The notes under the pieces are model-generated. The model was not told where the DNA came from, did not search any database, and was given only the letters and a program-made list of their open reading frames with translations. Position numbers and translations under genes: made by a program. 64,000 bases of DNA, taken from NCBI GenBank assembly GCA_963664435.2, contig CAXXKM010000003.1:1248001-1312000 (forward strand), written 5' to 3'. Positions 3,157 to 20,562 of this stretch are shown piece by piece (the first letter of the stretch is position 1; each line of letters begins with the position of its first letter). Source of the stretch: Longimicrobiales bacterium (GTDB lineage: Bacteria; Gemmatimonadota; Gemmatimonadetes; Longimicrobiales; Gaopeijiaceae).

Positions 3157-4029
3157 TTAGTACACCCAAATACGAACACTCCAAGGGGCGTTCTGTGTGC
3201 CATCCGTGACATTCAGTCTCAGGTCGATCAAACCTGAGACCGGAGGCACGGAAATACGTATGTGGGGATCGAAGGGTGGGTCTGGATTCCAAGCCTGAAA
3301 CCGGCCATGGGGACGTGCCTCTGAGCCTTGAATGACACCGGATTCCTCCAGAAACCGCACGTCTGCGCCGCCACCTGTTGTCACTAGCGACTCTTTGCCC
3401 ATGCCCCACCCGTGGCTGATATGTACACGGCCTTCCTTCTCAACAACCAAAAATTTGCAGTGCGCAACGAACGAAACAGGCATTTCGATTTCCCGTGCTG
3501 GCCCAACTTGCGTCCAGTCACCATCCGCTTGCATATGCGAATAGTCGGGAAGGGGAATCGACACCGTAACAGATGTCGTAAGTGTGTCGCCAACATTATC
3601 CACGATGGTTACGGGCAGATCGTAAAGACCTGGAGTGGCCCAAGACAGTGTTCGTATTACAACGGGACTCCATGTCGGAGGCCATGTGCCACCGGAACCG
3701 CCCCATTGATAGCTAATCCTGCCATCGTCAACGAAACCAGATCCAAACGTAACATATGGCGGCGACCCCCCATACACCAGGGGGAGGGAAGTATGCAATC
3801 CCCAATTGGGTTTGTTCTCAGCTCCTTGGATGGTTGTACATGCTGGCGATAGAGGAAATCCGCCATTTGGGGTTGGTAGAAAGGAGCCCGTCGCGGACGA
3901 AACAAAGGTCAGGTCTTGCTGACGAGCTGACGAAAGGACCATCGTGGGCGCGGTGATGGTTTCCCCGGGTATGGGGTCGTTGGCGCAGGCGGCAACGACG
4001 AGAAGGGCGATGGCGACGCGCTGTAACAT
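3157..4029 (-). CDS. Hypothetical lipoprotein (element cargo)
   Basis: 290-aa ORF with an AAGGAGG RBS and a lipobox-like MLQRVAIALLVVAAC. Visibly less GC-rich than the flanking genes. Confidence 0.65.
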   Translation of the reverse strand: MLQRVAIALLVVAACANDPIPGETITAPTMVLSSARQQDLTFVSSATGSFLPTPNGGFPLSPACTTIQGAENKPNWGLHTSLPLVYGGSPPYVTFGSGFVDDGRISYQWGGSGGTWPPTWSPVVIRTLSWATPGLYDLPVTIVDNVGDTLTTSVTVSIPLPDYSHMQADGDWTQVGPAREIEMPVSFVAHCKFLVVEKEGRVHISHGWGMGKESLVTTGGGADVRFLEESGVIQGSEARPHGRFQAWNPDPPFDPHIRISVPPVSGLIDLRLNVTDGTQNAPWSVRIWVY

Positions 4030-4368: not shown

Positions 4369-7300
4369 TCACCTCCTCCACGCGTAACCGTCCGGAATGC
4401 CCCGGCTGAACAGCGTTTCCAACCTCTGCCCGGCGGCCTGTCCCACCGCATCCGCCGCCGCCTGGGTCGCCGGAGCCGGATCCCGCAGGAATCCGCGCAC
4501 TTCTCCGGTTTGCGCGTCGCGAAGGATGGCCATCGGCTGGTCCGTGGTTTCGTCCAGCACGGCTGAGCCTCCGGGGCCGGATAGCGTGATGCTTGCCAGT
4601 TTGTCCCCCCAGCCCGGTCGGACAGGCAAGGCGAATACAAAGCTGGTCTCCTCACCCTCGGCGTCTCCGATGTGCGGCATATCGAAGGCAAACGAGAAGA
4701 CGGGTGTGCCATCAACGGTCGCACCCTCGATGGTATACTCCCCCCCGGCGACTGGAAGAGAGGGCACGGCGTCAACGACGAACGCGGGATCGAGGTACGG
4801 AACACCATCCTGATCCCGTCCACCCCAGATCAGAAGCGAACGAACGGGCACCGCCTCTGCGGCCATGGCCGCAGAGGCGGTGCCGCCGTTCGCAAGACGG
4901 TGGCTAAGTGCCTTGTTGAAAAAGAAATCGCTGGTCCAGTAGATCCCATGTGTGCAGTAGGACATGACGTCGGCGGCGTGCGGCGTCACCAACGCGTTCC
5001 GTCCGAAGTCGTACCCCCAGGCCCCGATGCTTCCGCCAAAATGCGGGAACCAGGGGTCGACCGTGCGGGGATTGCCACACGGTGCGTGCTTGAGCGAGAG
5101 GTTGTGCCCCAATTCATGGGCGATCGTGGAAGGGTTGCGCGTCGACATGCTCGCCCAGCCAGCGAGGCGGGCGACTCCCGTCGCCGCTGGGCTAGACGAG
5201 AATTCGTTACTATAGTTGGGTTGCCATACGCCCATCCAGTATCCCGAACCGCCCTCCATCACGCGCATCGCGTCTACCTGAGCCAATCTCCTGGAGATGT
5301 CCTGGGTCGATGTGATGACGGGTTGGCGCGCCGAGACAGCGAGTTCCGCTATCGGAAGTAGCATCCGCACGTCGCGGAGCAACTCGTGCCCGTCCGGATC
5401 CGCCGCCATTGCGGAAACGGACTCCACAACGGACGAGTCGGGCTCGGTTTCCCAGAGAAACGGGATAAGGGTCAGGCGCAAGGGCTGCACGGACCGGACG
5501 TCGATTGCCATGCGTCCTTCTTCGGGAATCCGCTTCGTGACTCCAAGCGCGGAGTCCAGCGTCCCTTCAGGATCGACTTCAATCACCATCTCCAAGCCTG
5601 GCACGATGACCCAGTCGGGAATCTCGGCGTTCGCCGACAGCGCAAGATCTCCTTCCATGACCTCTGAGGGGATGAGCCGGGTCGTCGCCGCGATATCGAC
5701 TGAGTGCCGTTCGGCCCCATCGACGAAGAAGGTGGCGCGGACATCGGGCATCGTCGCCGTGCCGGCCTGGGCCGCGGTCACGAAAACGCGCAGCAGCGCC
5801 GGCTTTCCGGCCAGGAGCGGCACGGGATCGTCCCATGACTGCACGCTCTGCGTCAGATACGCCGCCGCCCCACCGTCGCAACGTACCAGGTGGCGGTCGG
5901 CAATGCCCCGGAACCATGCGGCCCAAGCGGCATCCGGCGGCCAGCAGAGCCCGGTGCCTCCCGCCATGAGACGTTCGAGTCCTCCAATGGCCAGAATCTC
6001 GGAAGGCATCGGCCCGGCGAGGTCGGAGTTGTCCGCCAGAATCAGTTGATCTAGCAGGGTGAGGCTGCCGAATTCTGGAGGAACGGGACCGTTCAGCGCG
6101 TTGGATCGCAGGTCGAGATGCTCCAGGTTGGTGGCGCGCCCGAGTTCAGCGGGCAGAGCCCCGGAGAGTGCATTGTTGCCCAGATCCAGCGTGACCAGGC
6201 TGCCGAGACGGCCCAACTCACTCGGAATCGATCCAGAGAGTTGATTGTCGGAGAGCTCCAGCGCCCAAAGGTCGCCAGATCGCCCCAAGTCAGAAGGGAT
6301 CGATCCGGAGATCTCGTTGCCGGAGAGCCGGAGCTCCTGGAGACCGGCGAGGCCGCCGAGTGCCGAAGGAATGCTCCCGCTCAGTCGATTGCGGGAAAAG
6401 TCCACGGCGGACAGGCGGTCTAGCGTGCCAAGCTCGGGCGGAATGCGGCCCGTCAGTTGGTTATCAGCGAGCCGGATGGATATGAGCGCTGAGATCCTGC
6501 CGAGTTCCGAAGGAATGCTCCCGCTCAGTTGGTTGCCGACGAGTTCGAGCCGCTCGAGACGACTCAGATTGCCCAATGCGGCCGGAATGGAGCCTGAGAG
6601 GAAGTTCCATTTGAGGTCCAGCCTGGCGAGATCGGCGAGGTTGGCCAGTTCTTCTGGGATTTCGCCTGTGAGTTCATTATCCCTAAGACTGAGCTGCCGC
6701 AAAGGGACCAAGTCACCCAGCTCCGGCGGGATCGTCCCCGATATCCGGTTTCTGAAGAGGTCAAGTCCTCTCAACTCCGACAACCCGCCAAGCTCCGAAG
6801 GAATGCCGCCGTAGAGCTGGTTCCCCGCAAGGTCAAGCCACTCAAGATGGTCCAATTCACCCAACTCGATTGGGATCCGGCCGGACAACCCGTTGAACGG
6901 TAGCCGCAGTACGACGACCCGGCCGGCGGCATCGGTCTCCACACCGTGCCATTCGGCCAACGGTGCATCGGTGAGCCACCCCGTATTCTCGTTCCAGTTT
7001 CGGCCATCCGCATTCCGGTACAACAGCTCGAGAATGTCACGGTTCGTAAGAGGGGGACACGGCACTCCTGTCCCGGTGTGGCGCGGGATGCCGTTCAGCC
7101 AATCTTGGAAGCCGGCATCGTCCGCCACGCACAGGGACGTGCCCCGGTAGTCGAGCTCCTCCAGTTGCACCTCGGTCAGCGACAGAGGCAACCGGCCGGA
7201 CAAGGCGTTGTCCCCGATCCGCAGCTCCGTGAGGCTGGCCAGCAGGCCAAGCGCCTCCGGAACGTGGCCCGACAACGCGTTGCCGCTCAGATCGAGACCC

Positions 7301-9297
7301 GAGACCCGACCGATCGAATCCGTCCGCACGCCATGCCACCGGTCCAGGTTCTCGTCCTCCAGCCAGCCATCGGACCGCGTCCAGCCGGATCCGTTCGTGG
7401 CCTCGTGGAGGCTCTCCAGCGCGTCGGCATCGATCTCGTCGCAGAATGCGATATCCACCGCCCACTCGATGTTCCCGCGAGCCTCCACCTGCCGCGCCCA
7501 CTCCCTGAACTCGTCCGTCGCGGGCAGGCATACCCCCTCGGTTCGCCGGCAACCTATCGTCTGAAGTCTGTTCAGACCGATAAAACTCAACGGGAGGGAG
7601 CCCGTCAGGAGGTTGTCGGTCAAAGTAAGTCCTTCCAATGCAGCGAGGCTTCCGAGTTCCGTCGGCACCGCGCCCGTCAGTTCATTGTTGTTCAAATTCA
7701 GATTGCGCAGATGGGTCAGTTTCCCCAGCTCCGGCGGGATCGGACCTGTCAGTGCGTTACTCGACAGTGACAGGCTGGTCAGATTGGCAAGACCGCCCAG
7801 CTCCGGTGGGATCGGGCCCGTCAGACCGTTGTCATAGAGCCATAACCACCACAATCCCTCGATGTTGGCCAACTCTGGCGGAATCCGGCCTGTGAGGTTG
7901 TTCCCGTCAAGCAGCAGCCACCGCAGGTTGGCAAGGTTGGCCAGCTCCGGCGGGATCGGGCCCGCCAGATCGTTTTGCCGCAAGTTCAGATCGCGAAGTC
8001 CGGCAAGTCCGCCTAGCGATGGCGGAATCGTACCCGTCAGATTGTTCCATCCCAAATCAAGGTCTGACAACCGCACCAGATCGGCCAACTCCGGTGGGAT
8101 TGGGCCCGTCAGCTCGTTGTCGCGCAAACTAAGCACGCGCAGGTTGGAGAGGTCCCCGAGCTCTTGGGGAATTGTGCCGGTCAGGACGTTCCCTCGGAGG
8201 GAAAGTGTTTCGAGATTCGCAATTCCGCCGAACTCCGGCGGAATAACACCGAACAGTCGGTTCAAACCGAGGTTGAGATGCCGCAAGTTCGCAAGATTCC
8301 CCAGCTCCGAAGGAATGGTGCCCGTGACGGCGTTGATCCGGAGGCTGAGCACCTCCAGGGACGTGAGGCGCCCGAGTTCGGGCGGAATCGGACCCAGGAG
8401 GCCATGAGGCACTTGTTCCCGTCCTTCCCACACGCCGTCTAGACGAATGCCCACCACCCGCCCCGACGCGTCGGTCTCCACCCCGTACCACTCCCCCAAC
8501 GGCGCGTCGGTCAGCCAGTTGGTGTTGTCGATCCAATTCGGACCGTCGGTGGCCTCGTAGAGGGCTACCAGGGCGGTTCGGTCGGTATTCTCCACCGTTG
8601 TGACCTCGGCAGTGCCCGAGTATTCGCTCGCCGTCGCCGTGATCGTAGCCGTTCCTTCGTCCACTCCGGTCACCAACCCCGAGTCGTCCACCCGGGCCAC
8701 GAGCGTGTCGCTCGAAGACCAAACGAATTCCGTCACCGCCGCCACGCCGTGACCGTTCGCGTCGGTCGCCTCGGCCACCAGACGCACCGTGTCCCCGAAC
8801 GCCACCAGGGTGTCCGCCGCGGGCGACAAAACGACTGCGATCACCACCTGGGCCACGGTCACTGCCGCCGTGCCGGAGCCCGAGCCCGCCGTCGCGGTGA
8901 TCGTTGCGGTCCCGTTCCCCGCTGACGTCGCCAGCCCCGTCGCGTCCACCGACGCGACCGAAGCGTTGCTGCTCGCCCACGCGACGGCGGTTCCCGCCAT
9001 CACCTGCCCGTTCTGGTCGCGTACCTCGGCCGTGAACCGGGCCGTCTCTGCGAGGGCGCTCAGTGCGGCAGAACCTGGGCTGACCGCCACCGTGGTGGCC
9101 ACGGGAGTCGGTGGAGGAGCAGGCTCGACGGCGCCATCGCCGCAGGACAGGACCAGCACCGCGGTCGCGGCGATGGCCGAGATCGCGAAGCGCGCGCTCA
9201 AGCGTCCCGGTCGACCATCGCCCCGCCTCCGGCGAATGTGCCAACGGTGCATCCCTGCCCGACCATCTTCGGAAAGCCCTCTCGATTGCATGTCCAT
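4369..9297 (-). CDS. Large lipoprotein: Ig-like (Big_2) domains, plant-type leucine-rich repeat blocks and a C-terminal M66-like zinc metalloprotease
   Basis: LVLSCGDG lipobox; VAWASSNASVASVDATGL and WSSSDTLVARVDDSGLVT Ig repeats; many LxLxxNxLTGxIPPELGxL repeats with three cap motifs (ALYEATDGPNW...WYGV); HELGHNLSLKH and DVMSY. Start chosen from the AGGAG RBS; the ORF is open to 9342. Confidence 0.9.
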   Translation of the reverse strand: MDMQSRGLSEDGRAGMHRWHIRRRRGDGRPGRLSARFAISAIAATAVLVLSCGDGAVEPAPPPTPVATTVAVSPGSAALSALAETARFTAEVRDQNGQVMAGTAVAWASSNASVASVDATGLATSAGNGTATITATAGSGSGTAAVTVAQVVIAVVLSPAADTLVAFGDTVRLVAEATDANGHGVAAVTEFVWSSSDTLVARVDDSGLVTGVDEGTATITATASEYSGTAEVTTVENTDRTALVALYEATDGPNWIDNTNWLTDAPLGEWYGVETDASGRVVGIRLDGVWEGREQVPHGLLGPIPPELGRLTSLEVLSLRINAVTGTIPSELGNLANLRHLNLGLNRLFGVIPPEFGGIANLETLSLRGNVLTGTIPQELGDLSNLRVLSLRDNELTGPIPPELADLVRLSDLDLGWNNLTGTIPPSLGGLAGLRDLNLRQNDLAGPIPPELANLANLRWLLLDGNNLTGRIPPELANIEGLWWLWLYDNGLTGPIPPELGGLANLTSLSLSSNALTGPIPPELGKLTHLRNLNLNNNELTGAVPTELGSLAALEGLTLTDNLLTGSLPLSFIGLNRLQTIGCRRTEGVCLPATDEFREWARQVEARGNIEWAVDIAFCDEIDADALESLHEATNGSGWTRSDGWLEDENLDRWHGVRTDSIGRVSGLDLSGNALSGHVPEALGLLASLTELRIGDNALSGRLPLSLTEVQLEELDYRGTSLCVADDAGFQDWLNGIPRHTGTGVPCPPLTNRDILELLYRNADGRNWNENTGWLTDAPLAEWHGVETDAAGRVVVLRLPFNGLSGRIPIELGELDHLEWLDLAGNQLYGGIPSELGGLSELRGLDLFRNRISGTIPPELGDLVPLRQLSLRDNELTGEIPEELANLADLARLDLKWNFLSGSIPAALGNLSRLERLELVGNQLSGSIPSELGRISALISIRLADNQLTGRIPPELGTLDRLSAVDFSRNRLSGSIPSALGGLAGLQELRLSGNEISGSIPSDLGRSGDLWALELSDNQLSGSIPSELGRLGSLVTLDLGNNALSGALPAELGRATNLEHLDLRSNALNGPVPPEFGSLTLLDQLILADNSDLAGPMPSEILAIGGLERLMAGGTGLCWPPDAAWAAWFRGIADRHLVRCDGGAAAYLTQSVQSWDDPVPLLAGKPALLRVFVTAAQAGTATMPDVRATFFVDGAERHSVDIAATTRLIPSEVMEGDLALSANAEIPDWVIVPGLEMVIEVDPEGTLDSALGVTKRIPEEGRMAIDVRSVQPLRLTLIPFLWETEPDSSVVESVSAMAADPDGHELLRDVRMLLPIAELAVSARQPVITSTQDISRRLAQVDAMRVMEGGSGYWMGVWQPNYSNEFSSSPAATGVARLAGWASMSTRNPSTIAHELGHNLSLKHAPCGNPRTVDPWFPHFGGSIGAWGYDFGRNALVTPHAADVMSYCTHGIYWTSDFFFNKALSHRLANGGTASAAMAAEAVPVRSLLIWGGRDQDGVPYLDPAFVVDAVPSLPVAGGEYTIEGATVDGTPVFSFAFDMPHIGDAEGEETSFVFALPVRPGWGDKLASITLSGPGGSAVLDETTDQPMAILRDAQTGEVRGFLRDPAPATQAAADAVGQAAGQRLETLFSRGIPDGYAWRR

Positions 9298-10416
9298 CTC
9301 TCCTCGCCCTGCCCGCTTCGGTGTTCGGGCTTCCTGTCGCATCGGCCGCGCGCCGGACGTATCACGAGTTATTTAACAATCGTGATCATTGCGCGAGCTA
9401 TCGGCTCGTACGCATGAGATTACCGTGGCCGGAGAACAGCTGGCAAGGACGACCTACCGGTCACCAAGTTGCGTTCAATTCCCTAGCGAGCCTTCAGGGA
9501 GCGGGATGGGGCGTTCTTGCGAGCCGCTGGCGGCGGGGTCCAGCCGTTCGCGTGCCTTCTCGGACTACATCGGCCACGGCGGACAACAGGACGTTCCCCA
9601 CGGGTTGACGTCCTTGCGAACGGCTTTGCAGCGTTCCGGTTATGGAGACACTGAAGCAGCAGTTTCAATCGCACGCGAGCGAAGCCGCGGCCCACCTGCG
9701 CGGGCGGGTGTGGGCGCTCGGTGCCGAGGACAGCCGCCACCGGATCGGGAAGAATAGGGGCTCTGGGCGGCGCTTAGGCGACGGCGTGCGCGAGGGAACC
9801 CCAAGCCGGGATCCCCTCGTTGAAGACGCCGATGCGACGCGTTCAGCCGGAGCTTCCGCGGCCGCTCCGGACTGGCTTGTCGGACGCCGCTAACTAAGGA
9901 CGGGGAGCCAGCCGGACCCGCGCAAACCGGACGGCCATCCCGAAACCGCTCCACCACGGAGACTCCACGGGGGTCGCTCGGCAAGCCGCTGGCGGCGGCG
10001 TCCTTCGGCTGCTTTACGTTATCGAACATCCTCGAACGTTATCGGACAATAGGCGATTATCCGCGAGTTGACTCGTCTGCCAGCGACCCTTCACCGTTCG
10101 GGGATGGAGACGCTGGAACACTCGTTCAACGTGCCGATTAGGGCGCTCCTCGGGCGGGATGGAGAACCCGCGTCGCGCCTCCACTGGCGACGGGTGGCCG
10201 AACCCGAATCCGGCAACCCGTTGCCCCGTCGAGATGTGGGAAATGGCCTATTTCCCACTCGCTTGCGCGGCTTGCCGACACCGTGTTCGGGTTGATGTGC
10301 ATGGAGATCGTGACCAAACAGTTGGAGACCCCGCCGAGGAGCGTCCTCCGGTGTCGATTCGTTCCCCGTCCCAGCGGCTCCGCGAGCCGAGAAGGCTCGG
10401 AAGAGGGGGACCTGCG

Positions 10417-11352
10417 ATGATCGCCCACCTGAAGGGACGGGAACAGGCGCTGGAACCCTTGGGCCTGACCGGCCGCCGGGCCGAATGGATCGCGCTGGCG
10501 AGCCTGCACGGCGGCGTGTTCACCCGCGCGCAGCTTTCGGACTGGCTCGGGGCCAGCCGCTTCAAGGTGCTCCGGCTCATTCAGGCCCTGACGGAGCGAA
10601 GGCTGGTGACCGAGGAGACGGTCGGAGGTCTCAAGGTCTGCCGGGTCTGCGCGCGCGGCATCTACCGGGCGCTCGCTGCCGAGGACATCCGCCACCGAAG
10701 GATTACCTCGACCGAGGTGGTCATTCGCCGCCTGCTCTCTTTCGACTACGTGATCGAGCATCCGGACCTGCCCTGGCTCCCGACCGAGTCGGAGAAGGTG
10801 GGTGCGTGCGAGGCGCTCGGCATCGACCGCTCGCTCATGCCCGTCCGGGTCTATCGGGGCGCGGTCGGCGGTGCGCGGCGCTACTTCCCGCGCGGGATGC
10901 CCGTGGCGCTGGACTCTTGCCGCGCCGTGTTCGTCCACGCCGATCCCGGCTACGACACCTCGACCGCGCTCCACTCGTGGCGGGACCGGCACCGGAGGCT
11001 CTGGGAGGCGCTTAGAGAGGACGGCTTGTCGGTCGAGGCCATCGGGGTCGCAGGCGGCCGGAGGGAACTCGTTCGAGCGCGGACGATCCTCGGGAACTGG
11101 ACCAATGCGGACACGGCCCAACGTTCCGTGCATCCGCCTGGGACCGTCGCCGCGGCCCGGCGCGAGGCCGCACGGGTCGAGAACGCCATCCGGGGCATGG
11201 ACGACGCGACGGTCGAGGAACTGGGCGGTCTCAACGGCTGCCTTCGCCGCCTCGTCGAGATGAGGGAACTGCTCCGTTCGGCCCGTCCCGAAGGCACGAT
11301 CGACGGCCATTCGGTATGGCGGTCGAGCCGTCTTTCCGGAGTCCGAATTTGA
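10417..11352 (+). CDS. Element-associated protein of unknown function with an N-terminal winged-HTH-like region; candidate relaxase/replication protein
   Basis: GAGGGGG RBS then MIAHLKGREQALEPLGLTGRRAEWIALASLHGGVFTRAQL...RRLLSFDYVIEHP...LPTESEKV. Co-oriented upstream of the T4CP and integrase. Function is inferred from context only. Confidence 0.6.
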   Translation: MIAHLKGREQALEPLGLTGRRAEWIALASLHGGVFTRAQLSDWLGASRFKVLRLIQALTERRLVTEETVGGLKVCRVCARGIYRALAAEDIRHRRITSTEVVIRRLLSFDYVIEHPDLPWLPTESEKVGACEALGIDRSLMPVRVYRGAVGGARRYFPRGMPVALDSCRAVFVHADPGYDTSTALHSWRDRHRRLWEALREDGLSVEAIGVAGGRRELVRARTILGNWTNADTAQRSVHPPGTVAAARREAARVENAIRGMDDATVEELGGLNGCLRRLVEMRELLRSARPEGTIDGHSVWRSSRLSGVRI

Positions 11353-11527
11353 GTGCCGTTCGGGGGAGCCCGTTGCCGATCCGGAGGTGTGAAATCGACA
11401 TCGGGGTGCTTGTGCACGGAAATGCCGCTGTGTTGTGCGGAACGTGGGTTCCGCAAGTCTCCGGACGGCTTGGGGTTGGGCCACGGCCCGCGGATCGCCG
11501 GTGCCGATCCGGGTCTCCGGGCCGTGG

Positions 11528-11543
11528 ACGGGAGCGACCCGGC
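11528..11543 (-). repeat. Unoccupied inverted copy of the IS110 target site
   Basis: ACGGGAGCGACCCGGC is the exact reverse complement of the reconstructed empty site GCCGGGTCGCT|CCCGT (11608-11618 + 12973-12977). Confidence 0.9.
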
Positions 11544-11639
11544 CCTTCGGGATGCCTGGTGCGGCATCGGGGCGGTTCGGCATGTGCAGGCCCATGCCGC
11601 CCTCCCCGCCGGGTCGCTTGTCTCTTCCATTCTTGGAGA

Positions 11640-11866
11640 TCCCTGCTTGATTTGCAGGTCCGGGTCACGGGGATGGCCCGGTGTGCTGGATGCCCGCAGA
11701 GGCGAGCGGAGCGAGCCGGAGCGGGCATCCAGCACAGACGGTGGTCGGGCCGTCGGGTCGCTGGCCGCAAGGGCCGTACGGGAGTTTGGTCGCCACCGTC
11801 TTTCCCACGTCCTGAATGGATACTTGAGCATCGAGGCTCGCACGACAAGCACAGGAGAAAGGGAAA
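11640..11866 (+). ncRNA. IS110 bridge RNA (5' hairpins, target-binding loop and donor-binding loop); ends approximate
   Basis: Target-loop stem 11737-11744/11793-11800 encloses LTG CGGGTCGCT (11754-11762) and RTG GTACGGGAG (11776-11784). Donor-loop stem TTTCCC..TCCTG/CAGGA..GGGAAA encloses LDG ATGGATACT (11816-11824) and RDG GACAAG (11844-11849). Confidence 0.88.
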
Positions 11867-11870
11867 GCAC

Positions 11871-12872
11871 ATGAGCACCAGCCGTCGCACCGTCGGGATC
11901 GACATCTCCAAGGACTGGCTCGACGCCTTCGCGGCGCCCGAGGGGAGAGCGTCCCGGTTCTCGAACGACAGGGCCGGCTTCCGGAAACTGATCGCTTGGA
12001 TCGGCTCCGGGATCGACCGGATCGCGTACGAACCCTCCGGAGCCTTCCACCGCGACCTCGAGGACACCCTCCTGAAGGCCGGACTCCCCATGTATGCGAT
12101 CAACCCCTTCCAAGTCCGGTCCTTCGCCCGGTCCCTCGGCCAGCGAGCCAAGACCGATGCCGTGGACGCCCGGATGCTGGCCATCATGGCGTCGGCCATC
12201 GAAGACCTACGCCCGGCGCAGGCGAAGTCCGAGGGGCAGCGCGACCTTGCCGAGCTCCAGCAGATCCGCGACGCGCTGCGCAAGGACCGGACCGCCACCT
12301 CCAACCGCGGCAGGCACTTGCGCACTCCCGTGGGCAAGCGGGTCACCAGGCAGAGGCTGAGGCAGATCGAGCGCCAGCTGAAGCTCATCGACGCAGAGAT
12401 CCGGCAACGGGTGGAGGAGGAGAAGGCGCTGGAGCGCCGGGCCGAGATCCTGACCTCGATCCCGGGCATCTCGGACATCACCGCCGCGGGACTGATCGTC
12501 CACTTGCCGGAGCTCGGCACCCTCACCGGCCCCCGCGCCGCCAGCCTCGCCGGACTGGCCCCGGTCACCCGGGAGTCCGGACACTGGAAGGGACGCAGCT
12601 TCATCCAGGGCGGCAGGCGCCGGGTGCGCCAGTTGCTGTACATGCCCGCAGTGGCTGCGGTCCAGCACAATCCCGACCTCGGGCGCAAGTACGAAGCGCT
12701 CGTGGCTCGGGGCAAGCCGCCCAAGGTCGCCCTGACGGCCGTGATGCGGAAGCTCCTCATCCTCGCCAACGCCCTGGTGCAGCAGGACCGCACTTGGACG
12801 GCGCACCCGCCGCGGGAATACTCCTGCCCGGCCTTCCCGACGCCCAGCCCGGCGGGGAGCGTTCACGGATGA
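11871..12872 (+). CDS. IS110-family recombinase/transposase (333 aa)
   Basis: VGIDISKDWLD, AYEPSG and KTDAVDA (DEDD RuvC-like); SIPGI, AGLAPVTRESG (catalytic Ser context) and GKPPKVALTAVMRKL. Confidence 0.95.
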   Translation: MSTSRRTVGIDISKDWLDAFAAPEGRASRFSNDRAGFRKLIAWIGSGIDRIAYEPSGAFHRDLEDTLLKAGLPMYAINPFQVRSFARSLGQRAKTDAVDARMLAIMASAIEDLRPAQAKSEGQRDLAELQQIRDALRKDRTATSNRGRHLRTPVGKRVTRQRLRQIERQLKLIDAEIRQRVEEEKALERRAEILTSIPGISDITAAGLIVHLPELGTLTGPRAASLAGLAPVTRESGHWKGRSFIQGGRRRVRQLLYMPAVAAVQHNPDLGRKYEALVARGKPPKVALTAVMRKLLILANALVQQDRTWTAHPPREYSCPAFPTPSPAGSVHG

Positions 12873-12958
12873 TCGAGCCGGGCAAGAACGGGCACCGCAA
12901 CGGAAGCATCGCGAGGGGCGCTGCGAGACACGTCGCTCCAAGAAAATCGGGCATCCGC

Positions 12959-12964
12959 TTGACA
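12959..12964 (+). promoter_or_regulatory. -35 box (TTGACA) in the IS110 right end; pairs with -10 CATTCT (11628-11633) only in the circular form
   Basis: The junction reads TTGACA-TGGATACT-TGTCTCTTC-CATTCT, a 17-bp spacer. Confidence 0.8.
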
Positions 12965-13010
12965 TGGATACTCCCGTACCAACGATCCCTCCGGGAAGGG
13001 GGCTTTGCCG

Positions 13011-15032
13011 ATGAGGAACTCGACGGTCGCCGTCATCGGTGCCGCCATCGGAACGGCGGGCGCGCACGCGCTCGAACTGCCGTTCCCTGCCATCGGCGAC
13101 AACCCCTATCTCGACCTGATCGCCCACAACGATCCGGGCATCCACGCCGCCATCCGCATCTGGTACTACGCCTCGCCCGGCGTCGCGGTCATCCTCGCGG
13201 GCGCGCTCGTCCTCTCGGTCTGGCGGGTCTGGTTGCAGCCCCTCTTCAGGTTCCGGCGCAAGGGCAAGTTGCCCAGGTGGCCCACCTCGCCGAACGACGA
13301 CGCACCCTCTCTGGTAATCGGCGAGACGCACCACCCGACCGTGCCGCGCGAGAGCGAGCGGCCCTCGTGGCTCGTCGTCCCCGAAAAAGGGCTCTACACG
13401 GGCGTGCTCGTCGTCGGGGCCGTCGGCACCGGCAAGACCACGGCCTGCATGTACCCGTTCGCCAGGCAGCTTCTCTCCTGGCGCGCGGATGATCACCGCA
13501 AGCGCGCGGGCGCGCTTGTGCTGGAAGTCAAAGGAGACTTCTGCCATCAGGTTCGGAGCATCCTTGGCGAGGCCAGACGAGAGGAGGACTACCTCGAAAT
13601 CGGGCTCGGCGGCTCGTGGCAGTGGAACCCGCTGGACGATCCGCTCCTCGACTCCTACTCGGCGGCCTACGGCGTCGCGTCGCTCATCAACCAACTCTTC
13701 GGCAAGAGTAGGGAACCGTTCTGGCAACAGGCGTACACGAACCTGGTGCGGTGGATCATCGAGGTCCACCGCATCCTGCCGGGCGGCTGGGTCACGCTCC
13801 GGGACATCTACCGCTGCACCGTGGACGCGGAACTCCTGGGGCGGAGGATCGGCGAGGCCCGGAGGCTTGCGGACCGGCTCCGTCCGAAGCGCGCCGTCAT
13901 CTCGCACGAGGACATGATCGCCCACCCGCAGGCGCTGGAGGAGTGGGCGTGGGAGCGCGTGCCCGGCACCGGCAGCGTGGGGTGCCGTCTCGACCCGGAA
14001 CTGGGATCGCGGCTCGACGAACTTGGCGTCGCCTTCGAAACCGAAGAGGCCGACGGAGGCGCGGGCCGGGAGATCGCCGAACAGGTCGAGGCCATCGAGC
14101 GATGGTACTCCCATGACTGGATGGCGCTGGACGCAAAGCTCCGCACCTCGATCGTCGAGGGCATCAGCGTCTTCCTCTCGCTCTTCGACCTGCCGGACGT
14201 GGCCGGGGTGTTCTGCCCGCCGCCACCCACCGAGACTCCGTCCGCCGAGAGCAACGAAACCAATAGCAACAGCCATCCCGTGCCGGGACTTCGCCGGAGG
14301 CTGCCGCCGCTCGCGCAGCTGATCGACGAAGGCAAGGTCCTCGCCCTGAACATGCCCGCCGGAGCGAACCCGGCGCTCGCACGCGCCATCGGCGTGCTGC
14401 TCAAGAATGCCTGGATGCAGGCGCTGCTCCGGCGTCCGGCCGAGGCCGCCCGCCGTCCCGATCGCTACATGCGGCCCGCCGTGTTCATCTGCGATGAGTA
14501 CCAAGCGTTTGCGACCGTCGGACAGGACGATCCGTCCGGCGACGAGAAGGCGTTCGCGCTCACGCGGCAGTGCCGCTGCATCCCGATCGTCGCCACGCAG
14601 TCGATCTCGTCGCTCCGCTCCGTGCTTCCCTCAGGCGAGGCGTGGCGCACGCTCGTCCAGACGCTCCGCACCCGGATCTTCCTGTCGCTGTCCGACGAGG
14701 CGTCGGCCCGGATCGCGTCCGAGATGTGCGGCTCCGTCATGAAGACGCGGGCCTCACACACGTTCACCGAGACCACGGGCAGGCCCGAGTTCTCGCTCCT
14801 CTCCGGTCGCGCCGGAGGGGGACGGGGCACCATCGGCGCGAGCAAGTCGTTCCGGCAGCAGAGGGAGCCGGTGTTCACGCCGCGCGAGTTCGGGCTGCTC
14901 GCCAACTACCAGGCGATCTGCCTCCCCTACGATGGCGTGAAATCGCTTCCGGCCCGCCGCGTCTACCTGAAGCCCCACTACCTGCCGAGGGAGACGGGCT
15001 ACTGGCGGCTTCGCGAGAAGGGGCGGATATGA
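13011..15032 (+). CDS. Type IV coupling protein (VirD4/TraD family)
   Basis: N-terminal TM segments, Walker A GAVGTGKT, LVLEVKGDF, WNPL, EPFWQQA, Walker B FICDEYQ and IVATQSIS. Confidence 0.88.
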   Translation: MRNSTVAVIGAAIGTAGAHALELPFPAIGDNPYLDLIAHNDPGIHAAIRIWYYASPGVAVILAGALVLSVWRVWLQPLFRFRRKGKLPRWPTSPNDDAPSLVIGETHHPTVPRESERPSWLVVPEKGLYTGVLVVGAVGTGKTTACMYPFARQLLSWRADDHRKRAGALVLEVKGDFCHQVRSILGEARREEDYLEIGLGGSWQWNPLDDPLLDSYSAAYGVASLINQLFGKSREPFWQQAYTNLVRWIIEVHRILPGGWVTLRDIYRCTVDAELLGRRIGEARRLADRLRPKRAVISHEDMIAHPQALEEWAWERVPGTGSVGCRLDPELGSRLDELGVAFETEEADGGAGREIAEQVEAIERWYSHDWMALDAKLRTSIVEGISVFLSLFDLPDVAGVFCPPPPTETPSAESNETNSNSHPVPGLRRRLPPLAQLIDEGKVLALNMPAGANPALARAIGVLLKNAWMQALLRRPAEAARRPDRYMRPAVFICDEYQAFATVGQDDPSGDEKAFALTRQCRCIPIVATQSISSLRSVLPSGEAWRTLVQTLRTRIFLSLSDEASARIASEMCGSVMKTRASHTFTETTGRPEFSLLSGRAGGGRGTIGASKSFRQQREPVFTPREFGLLANYQAICLPYDGVKSLPARRVYLKPHYLPRETGYWRLREKGRI

Positions 15033-15130
15033 AGCGCGAGGCACGAGCCGATCACGCAACTGGCGGACAAGCCGCTTCCCCGCGAGCTTTCGGGCAGGCA
15101 GATCGTGCAGTCCATCTTCGGAGGAATCGA

Positions 15131-16294
15131 ATGATGGCACGCACGAAACGAGGTCGGCGCAGCTACAGCGCCGGAGAATGGGGCCGGAACCGGGTCCGGG
15201 TGTTTCCGGATCCGAAAACCGGCCTGCTCCAGATCGAGTGGCGGGAGAACGGTCGCAGGCTGAGCCGGTCGCTGAAACACCGCGATTGGGCTCGCGCGAA
15301 ACGGCAGGCGGATGAAGCCGCCGCGGGCTTCGCGATGTACGAGCCCAACGGCAAGGCCGAAGCCGAGCCCGAGCCGCTCACCCTGGAGAAGCTTTTTGAC
15401 ATCTACCGGGAAGAGGTGACGCCCACCAAGGGTGAGCCCACCCAGTGGCACGACAAGGCCGCGATGCGGATGTTTCTCGGGTTCTTCGGAATAAGCCGAA
15501 ACCCGGCGACGCTGTCGCAACGGGATTGGGATCGGTTCATCCGGGCGCGGCGGTCGGGTAGGATCGGACCGAGCGGAAAGCCGGTGTCCGACCGGACCAT
15601 CGAACACGACCTGAAGTTCCTGATCGCCGTCTTCAATTGGGCGGCCAAGTCGAGGGACGAGCAGGGTCGTTTGCTCCTTGAGTCGAACCCACTCAAAGGG
15701 CTGAAGGCGCCGACGGAGAAGAACCCCACCCGGGTCGTGATGTCCGACGAGGACTATCAGGCGCTTCTTGAAGTATCTCGGCAGGTCGATTGGCGGTTCC
15801 ACGTCGCGCTCGTGCTCGCACACGAGACCGGACACCGCATCGGTGCCATCCGCCACCTGCGGTGGTCTGACATTAGTCTTGAGGTAGGGACTATCCGATG
15901 GCGTGCTGAGCACGAGAAGACCGGTTACGAGCACCGAACGCCGGTGACCGCAGAGGCGCTTGCCGTGTTGGAAGAAGCCGCGAGACGCAGACCGGGAGTC
16001 GAAGATGCTCCGGTGTTGCCCACGCCTACGGATAGCTCAAGATGCTTGAGCCGCTCGCTGAGCTACGCTTGGTGGAACAGGGCGCAGGAACTCGCACGGC
16101 TGGAGCCGAAACCTGGCAGGGGCTGGCACTCGCTGAGGCGCAAGTTTGCTTCGGACCTCATGAACCAGCCCCTCAAGGTGCTGTGTGAACTCGGAGGCTG
16201 GAAGACGGCCCACACCGTGCTCCGGTGCTATCAGAGGGCGGACGAGGCACAGCTGAGGGAGGCGCTCGACAGTCGTCGCCGAATTCGGGCCTGA
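15131..16294 (+). CDS. Tyrosine recombinase/integrase
   Basis: HETGHRIGAI (Arg), EKTG (Lys), WHSLRRKFAS (HxxR) and LGGWKTAHTVLRCYQ (Trp, Tyr); N-terminal arm-binding-like region; GGAGG RBS. Confidence 0.93.
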   Translation: MMARTKRGRRSYSAGEWGRNRVRVFPDPKTGLLQIEWRENGRRLSRSLKHRDWARAKRQADEAAAGFAMYEPNGKAEAEPEPLTLEKLFDIYREEVTPTKGEPTQWHDKAAMRMFLGFFGISRNPATLSQRDWDRFIRARRSGRIGPSGKPVSDRTIEHDLKFLIAVFNWAAKSRDEQGRLLLESNPLKGLKAPTEKNPTRVVMSDEDYQALLEVSRQVDWRFHVALVLAHETGHRIGAIRHLRWSDISLEVGTIRWRAEHEKTGYEHRTPVTAEALAVLEEAARRRPGVEDAPVLPTPTDSSRCLSRSLSYAWWNRAQELARLEPKPGRGWHSLRRKFASDLMNQPLKVLCELGGWKTAHTVLRCYQRADEAQLREALDSRRRIRA

Positions 16295-18968: not shown

Positions 18969-19310
18969 ATGCCTGTCGGACGCAGGACTGCATCGTCCCC
19001 GCCAGCCGCAGTCGACGGGGCCCTGAGACGGCTGGGGCGCAACATCCGCATCGCTCGCTTGCGCCGGCAGCTGCGCATCCAGGACCTGGCCGAGCGCATG
19101 GGGGTTTCGCGGTTCACGGTCGCCGACCTGGAGAAGGGCAAACCGGGCACGTCGGCAAGCGCCTACTTCGGTGCGCTCTGGGCCCTCGGCCTGCTCGGCG
19201 ACGCGGAGGCCCTCGCCGATCCGGATCACGACGAGGAAGGCCGAGTCCTGGAGAGTGCCCGCGCCCCCCGGCGCGCCGCCCGTCCCGGACGCCTCGACAA
19301 TGACTTCTGA
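18969..19310 (+). CDS. XRE-family HTH antitoxin (HipB-like)
   Basis: LGRNIRIARLRRQLRIQDLAERMGVSRFTVADLEKG; overlaps the HipA start. Confidence 0.85.
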   Translation: MPVGRRTASSPPAAVDGALRRLGRNIRIARLRRQLRIQDLAERMGVSRFTVADLEKGKPGTSASAYFGALWALGLLGDAEALADPDHDEEGRVLESARAPRRAARPGRLDNDF

Positions 19311-20562
19311 GCGCGCGTGCTACGTCTTCGTCGTTCTGCCGGGGAAGACGGCGTTCACCGTTGCAGGCAGGTTCCGCGTCTCGGAAACCCGCTCGGGATC
19401 TCTGCTGGGCGAATTCGTCTATGGCCGGAGCTATCTCGGTCGCCCTGATGCCGTCGAACTCGATCCCGTGGAGCTGCGGCTCGCCGAGCGCGTGTACCGG
19501 ACGGGGCGCATGGGAGGTTTCTTCGGCGTCATTCGGGACTCCATGCCGGACCACTGGGGACGCCTGCTCATCGAGAGGCGCACCGGCAGGACGATCCTGG
19601 AGGAATTCGACTACTTGATGGCGGGGCCGGACGACCGCGCGGGCGCGCTCGGGTTCGGCAGGCAGCTGGAGCCTCCCAGGCCCCGGCGGCGCTTCAACGC
19701 GGTGGTCGACCTGTCGCGGCTTCAGGCCGCCGCACACGCCCTCCTGGCCGACAAGTTCGAAGTGACCGGGGCCGTGGCCGACCGCGCCCGCGAGCTTCTT
19801 CTCGCAGGCACATCGATGGGCGGAGCGCGCCCCAAGGCCGTGGTCGAATCCGAGGGCGCGCTGTGGATGGCCAAGTTCGGCCAGGAAACGGAGCGCTGGA
19901 ACCTGCCCCGGGTCGAGCATGGCCTGCTCCGGCTCGCGCGGCGATGCGGGCTGGACGCGGTCGAGAGCCGGGTCGAACGTGTCGGCAATCGCGACGCGCT
20001 GCTCCTGCGCCGCTTCGACCGGAAGTGGGCCGGCGACGGCTATCTGCGCCATCGCATGGCGAGCGCCCTCACCCTGCTGCGTGCCGACGACTCGCCGACC
20101 GGCCGCGGGCGTTGGTCCTACCTCGCGCTCGCGGACGAAGTGAGGCGGGCCAGCGCGGCGCCCCGGGAGGACCTGCGCGAGCTGTTTGGCCGGATGTGCT
20201 TCAACGCCGCGGTCTCCAACCTGGACGATCACCCGCGCAACCACGCGATGCTGGCCCGGGACCGCAGCTGGCGCCTGAGCCCGGCCTACGATCTGGAGCC
20301 GATGCCGGTGGTGGCGGTCGAGCGGCGTGATCTGGCCATGGTCTGCGGGCCGCTGGGCCGCTGGGCCAACAGGTCCAACCTGCTCGGAGCTGCCGGGCGA
20401 TTTCTGCTGGGGCGCGATGAGGCCCGGGACATCTTCAATCGAGTCACGGAGACGATTCGGGGATCCTGGCGCGAAACCATGCGTCGGGCCGGGGTGAGCG
20501 AACGAGACCGCGAACGCATTCGGGACGCGTTTCTCTACGACGGCCTGTTTCTGGATGCGTGA
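19300..20562 (+). CDS. hipA: HipA-family kinase toxin
   Basis: DSMPDHWGR, DRAGAL, GTSMGGARPK, LLRRFDR, SNLDDHPRNH and LSPAYDL. Confidence 0.92.
   Translation: MTSERACYVFVVLPGKTAFTVAGRFRVSETRSGSLLGEFVYGRSYLGRPDAVELDPVELRLAERVYRTGRMGGFFGVIRDSMPDHWGRLLIERRTGRTILEEFDYLMAGPDDRAGALGFGRQLEPPRPRRRFNAVVDLSRLQAAAHALLADKFEVTGAVADRARELLLAGTSMGGARPKAVVESEGALWMAKFGQETERWNLPRVEHGLLRLARRCGLDAVESRVERVGNRDALLLRRFDRKWAGDGYLRHRMASALTLLRADDSPTGRGRWSYLALADEVRRASAAPREDLRELFGRMCFNAAVSNLDDHPRNHAMLARDRSWRLSPAYDLEPMPVVAVERRDLAMVCGPLGRWANRSNLLGAAGRFLLGRDEARDIFNRVTETIRGSWRETMRRAGVSERDRERIRDAFLYDGLFLDA

What the first reader, a model, noticed from the sequence alone, without database searches (positions are those of the whole stretch)
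11528..12979. The IS110 target is one arm of a perfect 16-bp inverted repeat, and the other arm is an empty near-cognate target
Seen: with the IS removed, GCCGGGTCGCTCCCGT pairs perfectly with ACGGGAGCGACCCGGC at 11528-11543. This independently confirms the IS ends. The free arm matches LTG 9/9 and RTG 8/9 (CTCCCGTCC vs CTCCCGTAC). Known: IS621 targets palindromic REP repeats. Inference: this IS is programmed against a conserved palindrome of a mobilizable element and hitch-hikes on it. The occupied and empty arms form a natural test of distal-RTG mismatch discrimination.
Basis: partly seen in the sequence, partly recalled or inferred. Interest (0 to 1): 0.72.

Follow-up and report, generated by a model that had tools for sequence, protein, structure and literature searches.

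The report
IS110 element targeting a conjugation-locus palindrome
A bridge-RNA-guided IS110 insertion sequence sits in one arm of a conserved, foldable palindrome upstream of a conjugation coupling-protein gene, and identical or related copies elsewhere use the other arm just as often, so the empty arm is not protected by its single guide mismatch.

Summary
Removing the 1354-bp IS (window 11619-12972, CT core) restores a perfect 16-bp inverted repeat with a 64-nt spacer. The free arm matches the bridge-RNA left guide 9/9 and right guide 8/9. Public sponge-metagenome contigs carry the exact empty site.

The palindrome is real and conserved. 58 of 65 T4CP loci from Longimicrobiales-type genomes have it IS-free. 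Its inner 7 bp are invariant and its outer 4 bp covary strongly. Six loci carry the exact 16-nt cognate target.

The proposed "natural test" is already answered in this genome. A 100%-identical IS copy on contig C2 sits in the near-cognate (8/9) arm of a paralogous palindrome, and there the perfect arm is empty. Across 16 distinct palindrome-type insertion sites, 7 are in the T4CP-proximal arm, 7 in the distal arm and 2 are unassigned. Right-target matches range from 3 to 7 of 7.

So the distal right-guide mismatch does not discriminate. The left guide plus core reads the invariant inner stem. The right guide reads the variable outer stem and differs between IS variants that sit in different palindrome variants.

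Hitch-hiking on a transferable element is plausible but unproven. The palindrome's own function (oriT-like, att-like or RNA leader) is unresolved.

This is a new member of a known kind of IS.

The parts
10417..11352 (+). Conserved ~310-aa gene directly upstream of the palindrome. It has an N-terminal winged helix; the C-terminal domain is unassigned.
   Evidence: It is 56% identical to the gene in the same position of an IS-free ICE-like copy. 61 full-length homologues were found in the locus set L028-L113 (59 with intact T4CP-linked palindromes, L029 beside an IS-split one, L069 beside a variant one; L078 and L109 without a palindrome). There is no Pfam or NCBIfam family. The AF2 model has pLDDT 85.8, with a MarR-like wHTH at Z about 8 and a weak SdaI-like C-terminal match at Z 7.3.
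11528..11543 (.). Free (T4CP-distal) arm of the 16-bp palindrome. On the minus strand it is an empty near-cognate target.
   Evidence: It is one of only two exact 14-mer target matches left in the genome.
11544..11607 (.). 64-nt spacer with two internal hairpins. Together with the arms it forms a predicted three-way junction.
   Evidence: 49 of 61 unique relatives fold as an outer stem plus two hairpins under DNA parameters. Mean z is -3.1 against spacer shuffles, and spacer identity is only 59%.
11608..11618 (+). Inner part of the occupied (T4CP-proximal) arm: the left target plus the CT core.
   Evidence: It matches the left guide at 11754-11762.
11619..12972 (+). IS110-family insertion sequence, 1354 bp including one CT core copy at 12971-12972.
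   Evidence: Three 100%-identical copies are in the genome. Contigs with the empty site skip exactly 1354 bp.
11619..11870 (+). [quoted passage not shown] Donor-binding loop: left donor guide 11816-11824 and right donor guide core 11844-11849.
   Evidence: The MFE is -118.2 kcal/mol with z -4.55, and the fold has two internal-loop modules. In 22 IS relatives the scaffold is nearly invariant and variation is concentrated in the two target-guide segments.
11871..12872 (+). IS110 recombinase gene (333 aa).
   Evidence: PF01548 at 7.9e-22 and PF02371 at 3.5e-18. NF033542 'IS110 family RNA-guided transposase' at 209.5 bits against a cut-off of 140.
12959..12964 (+). TTGACA in the right end. It is a candidate -35 box of the promoter that would be rebuilt across the RE-LE junction of the circular form.
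   Evidence: The hexamer is read directly from the sequence. Its role is inferred from IS621 (PMC11208160, passages read).
12973..12979 (+). Right target, 7/7 to the right guide. Bases 12973-12977 complete the palindrome arm.
12986..12996 (+). Conserved 4-bp hairpin with a 3-nt loop that overlaps the Shine-Dalgarno-like GGAAGG.
   Evidence: The pair at alignment columns 120/124 changes on both sides in 26 of 63 sequences, and 99.2% of cells are paired.
13011..15032 (+). Type IV coupling protein (VirD4/TraG-like) gene.
   Evidence: PF12696 and PF10412. There are 6 paralogues in the genome and at least 497 relatives in genome contigs.

Best explanation
The element at 11619-12972 is an active-looking IS110-family insertion sequence that chooses its target with a bridge RNA.

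Its left target guide plus CT core pairs with the invariant inner stem of a conserved palindrome (GGGTCG-CT). Its right target guide pairs with the variable outer stem (CCCGT) plus two flanking bases.

The palindrome is about 96 nt long: a 13-16-bp outer stem enclosing two hairpins. It lies between a winged-helix gene and the T4CP gene of ICE-like elements in Longimicrobiales (Gemmatimonadota), and also beside tyrosine-integrase genes.

Because the site is a palindrome, each arm read on its own strand offers the same left target, core and first five right-target bases. The IS can therefore enter either arm, always reading outward from the spacer. Natural copies show that both arms are used equally and that mismatches in right-target positions 4-7 are tolerated.

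The empty arm in the window is therefore a competent target. It is most likely empty for one of two reasons:
- a second insertion would create two inverted 1.35-kb copies 64 bp apart, an unstable arrangement;
- the first insertion separates the arms and abolishes a stem that may help target recognition.

Shown here: the IS family, its ends, the guides, conservation and covariation of the palindrome, and use of both arms. Inferred: the reason the second arm stays empty, and the biological role of the palindrome.
For: IS family and ends
- assign the recombinase to IS110.
- fix the ends: the 1354-bp skip with a 2-nt CT ambiguity was seen in 4 of 4 runs.

Guides
- locate the guide segments.

Palindrome conservation
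- 58 of 65 T4CP loci with the gene start in view have an intact palindrome. 2 more have variant arms, 1 is split by a related IS, 2 carry another insertion and 2 have none.
- On 63 aligned sequences 99.6% of cells are paired.
- 82 cells have changes on both sides, against a shuffled mean of 23.4 (0 of 500 shuffles as high).
- The inner 7 bp are invariant.

Cognate targets
- 6 of 63 proximal arms match the 16-nt guide-specified target 16/16, and the same 6 loci have distal arms at 15/16.

Both arms are used
- C2:901458-902811 is 100% identical to the window IS and sits in the distal arm. The proximal 16/16 arm there is empty.
- Of 16 distinct palindrome-type insertion sites, 7 are proximal, 7 distal and 2 unassigned.
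- None of the 14 assigned sites has both arms occupied.

Guide matches at 13 of the 16 sites (both ends read for 12 and for L155)
- Left-target matches are 5-7 of 7.
- Right-target matches are 3-7 of 7, and only 2 of the 13 are 7/7.

Right guides differ with the palindrome variant
- GTAC-, GTGC- and GTCT-GGGAG right guides go with CCCGTAC, CCCGCAC and CCCAGAC proximal arms.
Against: - Nothing here shows transposition experimentally.
- The survey scored only 2 candidates per genome, and the loci were chosen by similarity, so the 7:7 tally is a small, non-random sample.
- Related genomes are not independent. I counted identical flanks once.
- One identical copy (C2:851557-852910) lies in a half-palindrome with no partner arm and matches the right guide only 4/7. 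One metagenome site (L156) has no palindrome. The palindrome partner is therefore not strictly required, or it was lost later.
- The reason for the empty arm is untested. With so few cases, the absence of double occupancy is also what chance would give.
Confidence: 0.8

Rival explanations
1. The free arm is empty because the single mismatch at right-target position 6 (C for A) prevents bridge-RNA-guided insertion. On this reading the two arms are a natural discrimination test.
For: - IS621 shows low tolerance of single mismatches in a plasmid screen, and extended right guides improve specificity (PMC11208160, passages read).
- The window IS sits in the 9/9 arm.
Against: - An identical IS copy occupies that same near-cognate sequence on C2, while the perfect arm there is empty.
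- 5 further relatives sit in arms with 1-2 right-target mismatches, and the range is 3-7 of 7.
- The only two exact 14-mer targets left in the genome are the arms opposite existing IS copies.
Confidence: 0.05
2. The palindrome is a selfish or independent repeated module, REP-like or MITE-like or a recombination (att-type) site of the abundant tyrosine-integrase elements. On this reading it is not a functional part of a conjugative element, and the IS is simply a repeat-targeting IS110 as in other bacteria.
For: - In this genome only 6 of the 19 palindromes adjoin the wHTH and T4CP genes.
- Several others lie 240-1800 bp from divergent integrase paralogues (31 tblastn hits to the window's integrase in the genome; hits, not a gene count).
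- Two pairs face each other 170-200 bp apart.
- Different sequences follow directly after the GGAAGG hairpin in different loci, as at a recombination junction.
- A sister IS group targets a short REP-like hairpin.
Against: - The copy number is about 20, not hundreds.
- The unit is a 96-nt three-way junction, not a 20-40-nt hairpin.
- In relatives it is found at a fixed distance before the T4CP start in 58 of 65 loci.
- No integrase-site experiment or crossover sequence was identified.
Confidence: 0.2
3. The palindrome acts as RNA. It would be a structured 5' leader of the T4CP mRNA that controls translation through the SD-overlapping hairpin, and the IS merely exploits its sequence.
For: - It sits about 45 nt before the T4CP start on the coding strand.
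- The small hairpin overlapping GGAAGG covaries.
- The fold is conserved while the sequence is only 59% identical.
Against: - G-U pairs are rare and equally frequent on both strands: 47 of 2185 pairs on plus and 60 of 2224 on minus.
- The palindrome with its GGAAGG hairpin also occurs where no T4CP gene follows.
- There is no Rfam family, and no promoter-like or terminator-like site.
- No RNA data were available.
Confidence: 0.15

Closest known systems
IS621 and other IS110-family bridge-RNA recombinases that insert into REP palindromes (PMC11208160: passages read)
   Same: - DEDD plus Ser-domain recombinase.
- A long 5' non-coding end encoding a two-loop RNA.
- A CT core.
- The left and right target guides flank a small hairpin.
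- The donor guides match the IS ends.
- A -35 box lies in the right end.
- The natural targets are palindromic repeats.
   Different: - The target is not a REP. It is a 96-nt three-way-junction palindrome with about 20 copies per genome, linked to a T4CP gene and to integrase genes.
- The right guide appears to be long: 7 non-core bases match in 2 of the 13 palindrome-type copies with both ends read, and also in a sister-group copy (L125).
- The host is a sponge-associated Gemmatimonadota lineage.
ISPpu10 of Pseudomonas putida: REP target whose stem-loop acts as a second specificity determinant (bioRxiv 10.64898/2026.03.19.712850: abstract and section 7 read)
   Same: The left target lies inside a stem, and targets often occur as convergent pairs less than 200 bp apart. 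The idea that the target's structure gates insertion would explain why a split palindrome is not hit twice.
   Different: - In ISPpu10 the stem is a local ~5-bp hairpin directly 5' of the target. Here the complement of the left target is the other arm, 64 nt away.
- No structure dependence was tested here, and one identical copy sits in a half-palindrome.
IS1111-family elements that target functional sites of other mobile elements: IS4321/IS5075 (Tn21 terminal inverted repeats) and the attC-targeting group. I saw these only as reference-list entries in PMC11187229 and PMC11208160; the biology is recalled.
   Same: An IS of the DEDD superfamily is specialised on a conserved, repeated, palindromic site carried by another mobile element, so it can spread with that element.
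   Different: - Those are IS1111-type, with the RNA downstream and subterminal inverted repeats. This one is IS110-type.
- The host site here is an uncharacterised palindrome in ICE-like elements.
Natural retargeting of seekRNA/bridge RNA between close relatives, ISEc11 versus ISXne4 (PMC11187229, passages read)
   Same: IS copies 82-98% identical in DNA carry different guide segments on a constant scaffold and sit in correspondingly different targets.
   Different: Here the switch is between variants of one palindrome family, and between that palindrome and a short REP-like hairpin, all within one bacterial order.

Membership tests
IS110 family (bridge-RNA-guided recombinase IS) | N-terminal DEDD/RuvC-like domain and C-terminal Transposase_20 domain | tested here: met
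   PF01548 at 7.9e-22 and PF02371 at 3.5e-18. NF033542 at 209.5 bits against a cut-off of 140.
IS110 family (bridge-RNA-guided recombinase IS) | Long non-coding end upstream of the recombinase gene (IS110 type rather than IS1111 type), with no terminal inverted repeats and a 2-bp core repeated at both junctions | tested here: met
   The left end is 252 nt and the right end 100 nt, with CT at both junctions. Empty-site contigs skip 1354 bp with a 2-nt ambiguity.
IS110 family (bridge-RNA-guided recombinase IS) | An RNA with two internal loops: target guides complementary to the two target flanks, and donor guides complementary to the IS ends | tested here: met
   - The predicted fold has both modules.
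- The left guide matches 9/9 and the right guide 9/9 to the window flanks.
- The left donor guide matches the right end 9/9, and the right donor guide matches 6 contiguous bases of the left end.
- The scaffold is conserved and the guide loops are variable in 22 relatives.
- This rests on prediction and sequence only; there are no RNA data.
IS110 family (bridge-RNA-guided recombinase IS) | Match to a curated RNA family for the bridge RNA | tested here: inconclusive
   No Rfam 15 match at E up to 1 in 10500-14000. I do not know whether Rfam holds a bridge-RNA family.
IS110 family (bridge-RNA-guided recombinase IS) | Excision to a circle and RNA-guided insertion | not testable with these tools
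   Three identical copies and empty sites in public contigs suggest recent mobility. Contigs cannot show circles.
REP (repetitive extragenic palindromic) element as the target | A short (about 20-40 nt) imperfect palindrome present in very many extragenic copies | tested here: not met
   - The unit is about 96 nt with a 64-nt structured spacer.
- The arm-spacer-arm pattern gave 21 hits in 4.5 Mb, 19 of which I kept as palindromes.
- The sister IS group does target a short hairpin of that kind.
oriT of a conjugative element | An inverted repeat next to a nic site that is cut by the element's relaxase and is required in cis for transfer | not testable with these tools
   - For: it lies between a DNA-binding-type gene and the T4CP gene, and the fold is conserved.
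- Against: the full ICE-like copy has a NikA/MobC gene and a PF03432 relaxase 7 kb away that may have their own oriT.
- No nic motif was identified.
MOBC-type (restriction-endonuclease-like) relaxase, for the upstream 310-aa protein | PD-(D/E)XK nuclease fold with catalytic residues, next to an HTH domain | tested here: inconclusive
   - The N-terminal wHTH is clear (Z about 8).
- The C-terminal part matches SdaI only at Z 7.3 over 121 residues. FokI and VC1899 appear among weak Foldseek rows with E above 0.003.
- No catalytic motif was located.
- The family description is partly recalled. [quoted passage not shown]

The most novel reading that the evidence does not exclude
The palindrome is a cis-acting site that works as folded single-stranded DNA, an oriT-like or att-like three-way junction of ICE and integrase elements. 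This IS110 lineage recognises it by sequence plus structure. Insertion would then be favoured when the locus is extruded or single-stranded, for example during conjugative transfer. The first insertion would immunise the partner arm by destroying the stem. That would couple an RNA-guided transposon to the transfer cycle of its carrier, and would give a natural case of structure-gated bridge recombination over a 64-nt distance.
Probability: 0.12. Interest if true: 0.75.

Novelty: new member of a known kind. Interest (0 to 1): 0.45.

Why it matters
IS110 bridge recombinases are being developed as programmable genome editors, so natural evidence on what their guides tolerate is useful. This locus offers three things.

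- A clean natural series. Identical and near-identical elements sit in both arms of one palindrome family. The left target and core are always matched, while up to four of seven right-target bases are mismatched. The right guides differ between IS variants that sit in different variants of the target's variable outer stem.
- An undescribed conserved structure. A strongly covarying DNA or RNA structure lies upstream of T4CP genes in hundreds of Gemmatimonadota elements. Its role in transfer, integration or regulation could be tested.
- A defined assay. It would ask whether target secondary structure, recently reported for ISPpu10, also gates insertion when the pairing partner is 64 nt away.

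Tried and rejected
- **Rfam.** No match on the window region. On an intact palindrome there were only chance-level rows with E above 1.
- **Promoter and terminator scan** around an intact palindrome: 0 and 0.
- **Strand test for an RNA versus DNA role.** The minus strand folds about 5.7 kcal/mol better in 57 of 61 sequences. The same holds for mirrored structures, and G-U pairs are equally rare on both strands. The asymmetry comes from loop terms, so the test is uninformative.
- **Upstream 310-aa protein.**
  - No Pfam or NCBIfam family.
  - Only weak PDB sequence matches: an E 4e-4 hit to plant pTAC3 over 110 residues that I could not interpret.
  - Foldseek found nothing at E <= 0.001.
  - The protein atlas returned only unnamed clusters.
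- **VirB4 family PF03135**: not found in the 96%-complete genome.
- **Earlier notes of this scan**: none for this genome.
- **Genes downstream of an integrase-linked palindrome** (L035): no informative Pfam hits.
- **Metagenome scan** with the left junction pattern: only 6 loci, 4 distinct sites.
- **Public runs.** All were held as contigs, so no circle junctions, read depth or RNA evidence could be obtained.
- **PMC3746933** (TraX/MOBC) is not held, so the pAD1 parallel (relaxase, large inverted-repeat oriT, T4CP) remains a recollection.
- **Literature search** for IS110 + bridge RNA + conjugative + oriT: 0 papers.
- **Considered and rejected: that the C2 arrangement arose by inversion between the arms.** The spacer has the same orientation relative to the flanks in both loci, and the IS orientation fits guided insertion in each arm.
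Full report
**Observation**

The sequence is as described.
- The free arm occupies 11528-11543.
- The other arm is split into 11608-11618, which ends in CT, and 12973-12977.
- Removing 11619-12972 in memory restores a perfect 16-bp inverted repeat with a 64-nt spacer.
- 0 of 300 first-order Markov simulations of the region reached 16 bp; the maximum was 13.

**The insertion sequence**

The inserted 1354 bp encode a 333-aa protein.
- It matches PF01548 and PF02371.
- It matches the NCBIfam model 'IS110 family RNA-guided transposase' at 209.5 bits against a cut-off of 140.

The 252-nt left end folds well (-118.2 kcal/mol, z -4.55). After a long perfect hairpin, the fold has two internal-loop modules.
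- The first module carries a 9-nt left guide (11754-11762) identical to the left flank plus CT. It also carries a 9-nt right guide (11776-11784) complementary to CT plus the seven bases of the right flank.
- The second module carries a segment identical to the last nine bases of the IS and a segment complementary to its first six.

In 22 related copies the scaffold is nearly invariant, and variation is concentrated in the two target-guide segments. A TTGACA hexamer lies 8 nt from the right end. For IS621, a promoter is rebuilt across the junction of the circular form at this position (PMC11208160, passages read).

The ends are confirmed independently. In 4 of 4 public sponge-associated runs, a contig joins 11616 to 12971, skipping 1354 bases with a 2-base ambiguity. 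Six orthologous loci carry the uninterrupted site.

**The palindrome**

The host is a member of the Longimicrobiales (Gemmatimonadota), judged from the titles of the closest records. A search with the T4CP protein found at least 497 relatives, of which 78 loci were kept.

Of the 65 loci that include the start of the gene:
- 58 have an intact palindrome about 45 nt before the start codon;
- 2 have variant arms;
- 1 (L077) is split by a related IS110;
- 2 (L063, L066) carry an unrelated AT-rich insertion;
- 2, the most distant, have none.

I aligned 63 sequences: 59 from these 58 loci and 4 from the window's genome.
- The inner seven pairs never vary.
- The outer four pairs change on both sides in 27, 8, 8 and 13 sequences.
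- 99.6% of cells are paired.
- 82 cells have changes on both sides, against a shuffled mean of 23.4 (0 of 500 shuffles as high).
- Sliding the partner by one to three columns drops pairing to 39-53%.

The spacer is only 59% identical on average. Even so, 49 of 61 unique sequences fold as an outer stem plus two hairpins, with mean z -3.1 against shuffles of the spacer alone. A 4-bp hairpin overlapping the GGAAGG before the start codon also covaries (26 of 63 sequences).

The palindrome is always preceded by a conserved 310-aa gene.
- Its product has a MarR-like winged helix and no known family.
- Its C-terminal part resembles restriction endonuclease SdaI only weakly, at Z 7.3.

An IS-free full copy in the same genome (L028) has this order:
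- NikA/MobC, a PF03432 relaxase, MbeD-like, PadR and an integrase;
- then VirB6, VirB8, the 310-aa gene and the palindrome;
- then T4CP, VirB11 and ArdC.

**The natural test is already answered**

The genome holds three 100%-identical copies of the IS.
- The window copy sits in the T4CP-proximal arm, and its right target matches the guide 7/7.
- The copy at C2:901458-902811 sits in the distal arm of a paralogous module (T4CP 94% identical).
  - Its target is identical to the window's empty arm for at least 14 nt to the left and 19 nt to the right of the core, so it carries the same single mismatch.
  - The perfectly matching proximal arm there is empty.
- The third copy (C2:851557-852910) lies in a proximal-type half-site with no partner arm and matches the right guide only 4/7.

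The only two exact matches to the 14-base target left in the genome are the arms opposite the two palindrome-borne copies. Hits with one mismatch are at chance level: 16, against 14 for the reversed control pattern.

A search of 301 genomes of the order found the IS or relatives in 42 of them, counting the window's own genome; only two candidates were scored per genome. Together with one metagenome scan this gave 16 distinct insertion sites of copies whose left guide ends in GGTCGCT.
- 13 have the partner arm 80-87 nt away, 1 has it at 107 nt, and 2 have none.
- 7 are proximal, 7 are distal and 2 are unassigned.
- None of the 14 assigned sites has both arms occupied.
- For the 13 sites where both ends were read, left-target matches are 5-7 of 7 and right-target matches are 3-7 of 7. 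Only two sites are 7/7.

Another IS type, whose guides do not match the palindrome, also sits in a distal arm (L134, the same site as L077).

**Guides track the target**

The left guide plus core covers the invariant part of the stem. The right guide covers the covarying outer part.

IS variants differ accordingly.
- The window IS is tuned to CCCGTAC. That sequence is the proximal arm of exactly the T4CP subfamily found in the window (6 of 63 arms at 16/16).
- A 98%-identical variant carries a guide for CCCGCAC and sits in such an arm (L143).
- An 87%-identical variant carries a guide for CCCAGAC, which is the proximal arm of the palindrome it occupies on the distal side (L005).

A midpoint-rooted FastTree of 30 distinct IS sequences places the palindrome-type copies in several basal lineages. 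A large group nests among them whose left guide reads GCTGGC. That group sits in the 5' arm of a short REP-like hairpin. Support values were not examined.

**What the palindrome is**

This remains open. In this genome the arm-spacer-arm pattern gave 21 hits, 19 of which I kept as palindromes. Only 6 of the 19 adjoin the 310-aa and T4CP genes.
- Several others lie 240-1800 bp from divergent tyrosine-integrase paralogues (31 tblastn hits to the window's integrase in the genome).
- Two pairs face each other 170-200 bp apart.
- Different sequences follow directly after the GGAAGG hairpin in different loci.

Several points argue for a DNA-level cis site (oriT-like or att-like) rather than only an mRNA leader:
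- the conserved three-way fold;
- the near absence of G-U pairs on either strand;
- the occurrence of the palindrome without a downstream T4CP gene.

Against an oriT role, the ICE has a canonical NikA-relaxase pair elsewhere. No test available here decides the question.

**Why the second arm stays empty**

Mismatch discrimination is excluded by the C2 copy. Two explanations remain, and both are inferred.
- Two inverted 1.35-kb copies separated by 64 bp would be an unstable long palindrome.
- The first insertion separates the arms, so the stem containing the left target can no longer form. A preprint on ISPpu10 reports that a target stem-loop is a second specificity determinant (10.64898/2026.03.19.712850, abstract and section 7 read).

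With 14 cases, the absence of double occupancy is also compatible with chance.

**Comparison and novelty**

Several related behaviours are already described:
- IS110 elements that insert into palindromic repeats;
- tolerance of one or two mismatches at off-target sites;
- extended right guides in some orthologues;
- natural retargeting (PMC11208160 and PMC11187229, passages read).

Relatives specialised on functional sites of other mobile elements are also known. I saw those only in reference lists.

This case is a new member of that kind with a new type of target. It comes with a well-populated natural series and an undescribed conserved structure. My one search for IS110 + bridge RNA + conjugative + oriT returned no paper; this is one search, not proof of absence.

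**Limits**
- The loci were chosen by similarity, and related genomes are not independent.
- The contigs come from mixed communities.
- No RNA or functional data were available.
- bioRxiv supplements are closed, so details of the ISPpu10 target rules could not be checked.

Noticed in passing
window 15100-16294; genome-wide: A tyrosine-recombinase gene directly follows the T4CP gene. tblastn with it gave 31 hits in the genome (about 70-100% amino-acid identity; hits, not a gene count), and blastn showed about 20 loci at about 75-96% nucleotide identity. Several lie 240-1800 bp from a palindrome and point away from it. It looks like a family of small integrase elements.
   Followed up: partly
G000 C1:1455302-1455637 and C3:429319-429686: Two palindromes lie in opposite orientation with their GGAAGG-hairpin sides facing each other, 170-200 bp apart. 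They could be ends of an element or a recombination product.
   Followed up: no
loci L116, L118, L119, L122-L126, L129, L144-L151: Sister IS copies, 85-89% identical, have a left guide reading GCTGGC and sit in the 5' arm of a short REP-like hairpin (GCTGGCT ... AGCCAGC). This is natural retargeting between a REP-like repeat and the ICE palindrome.
   Followed up: partly
L063 1-126 and L066 about 3740-4009: In two T4CP loci the palindrome is replaced up to the right-arm position by AT-rich sequence. This is a different insertion at the same hotspot.
   Followed up: no
window 11544/11608 (table 5): One contig of run X15 joins 11544 to 11608 on opposite strands, exactly at the inner edges of the two arms. 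It is either an inverted spacer variant or an assembly artefact at the inverted repeat.
   Followed up: no
G000 C3:10333-11688 (L004); same flanks in L117 and L130: An 88%-identical IS has a REP-type left guide and a palindrome-type right guide. It sits at a site that matches neither guide well, but the site is followed by the CCACGGCC motif typical of distal-arm flanks.
   Followed up: partly
window 4369-9342 (-); L029 4279-9771 (-): Very large surface-type proteins flank the two IS-bearing modules. One is 1657 aa with LRR and Big_2 domains; the other is 1830 aa with cadherin and fn3 domains. Such eukaryote-like repeat proteins are typical of sponge symbionts (recalled).
   Followed up: no
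window 19171-20562: A HipA-like kinase gene (HipA_C, E 2e-43) lies downstream of the integrase. A DUF1028-TPR protein and an L-PSP endoribonuclease-family protein follow it.
   Followed up: no
G000 C3:574797, C3:1159515, C1:728954: Three ICE-like copies in the genome have nearly identical sequence over the 330 nt upstream of the T4CP gene. The element is multi-copy in this genome.
   Followed up: no
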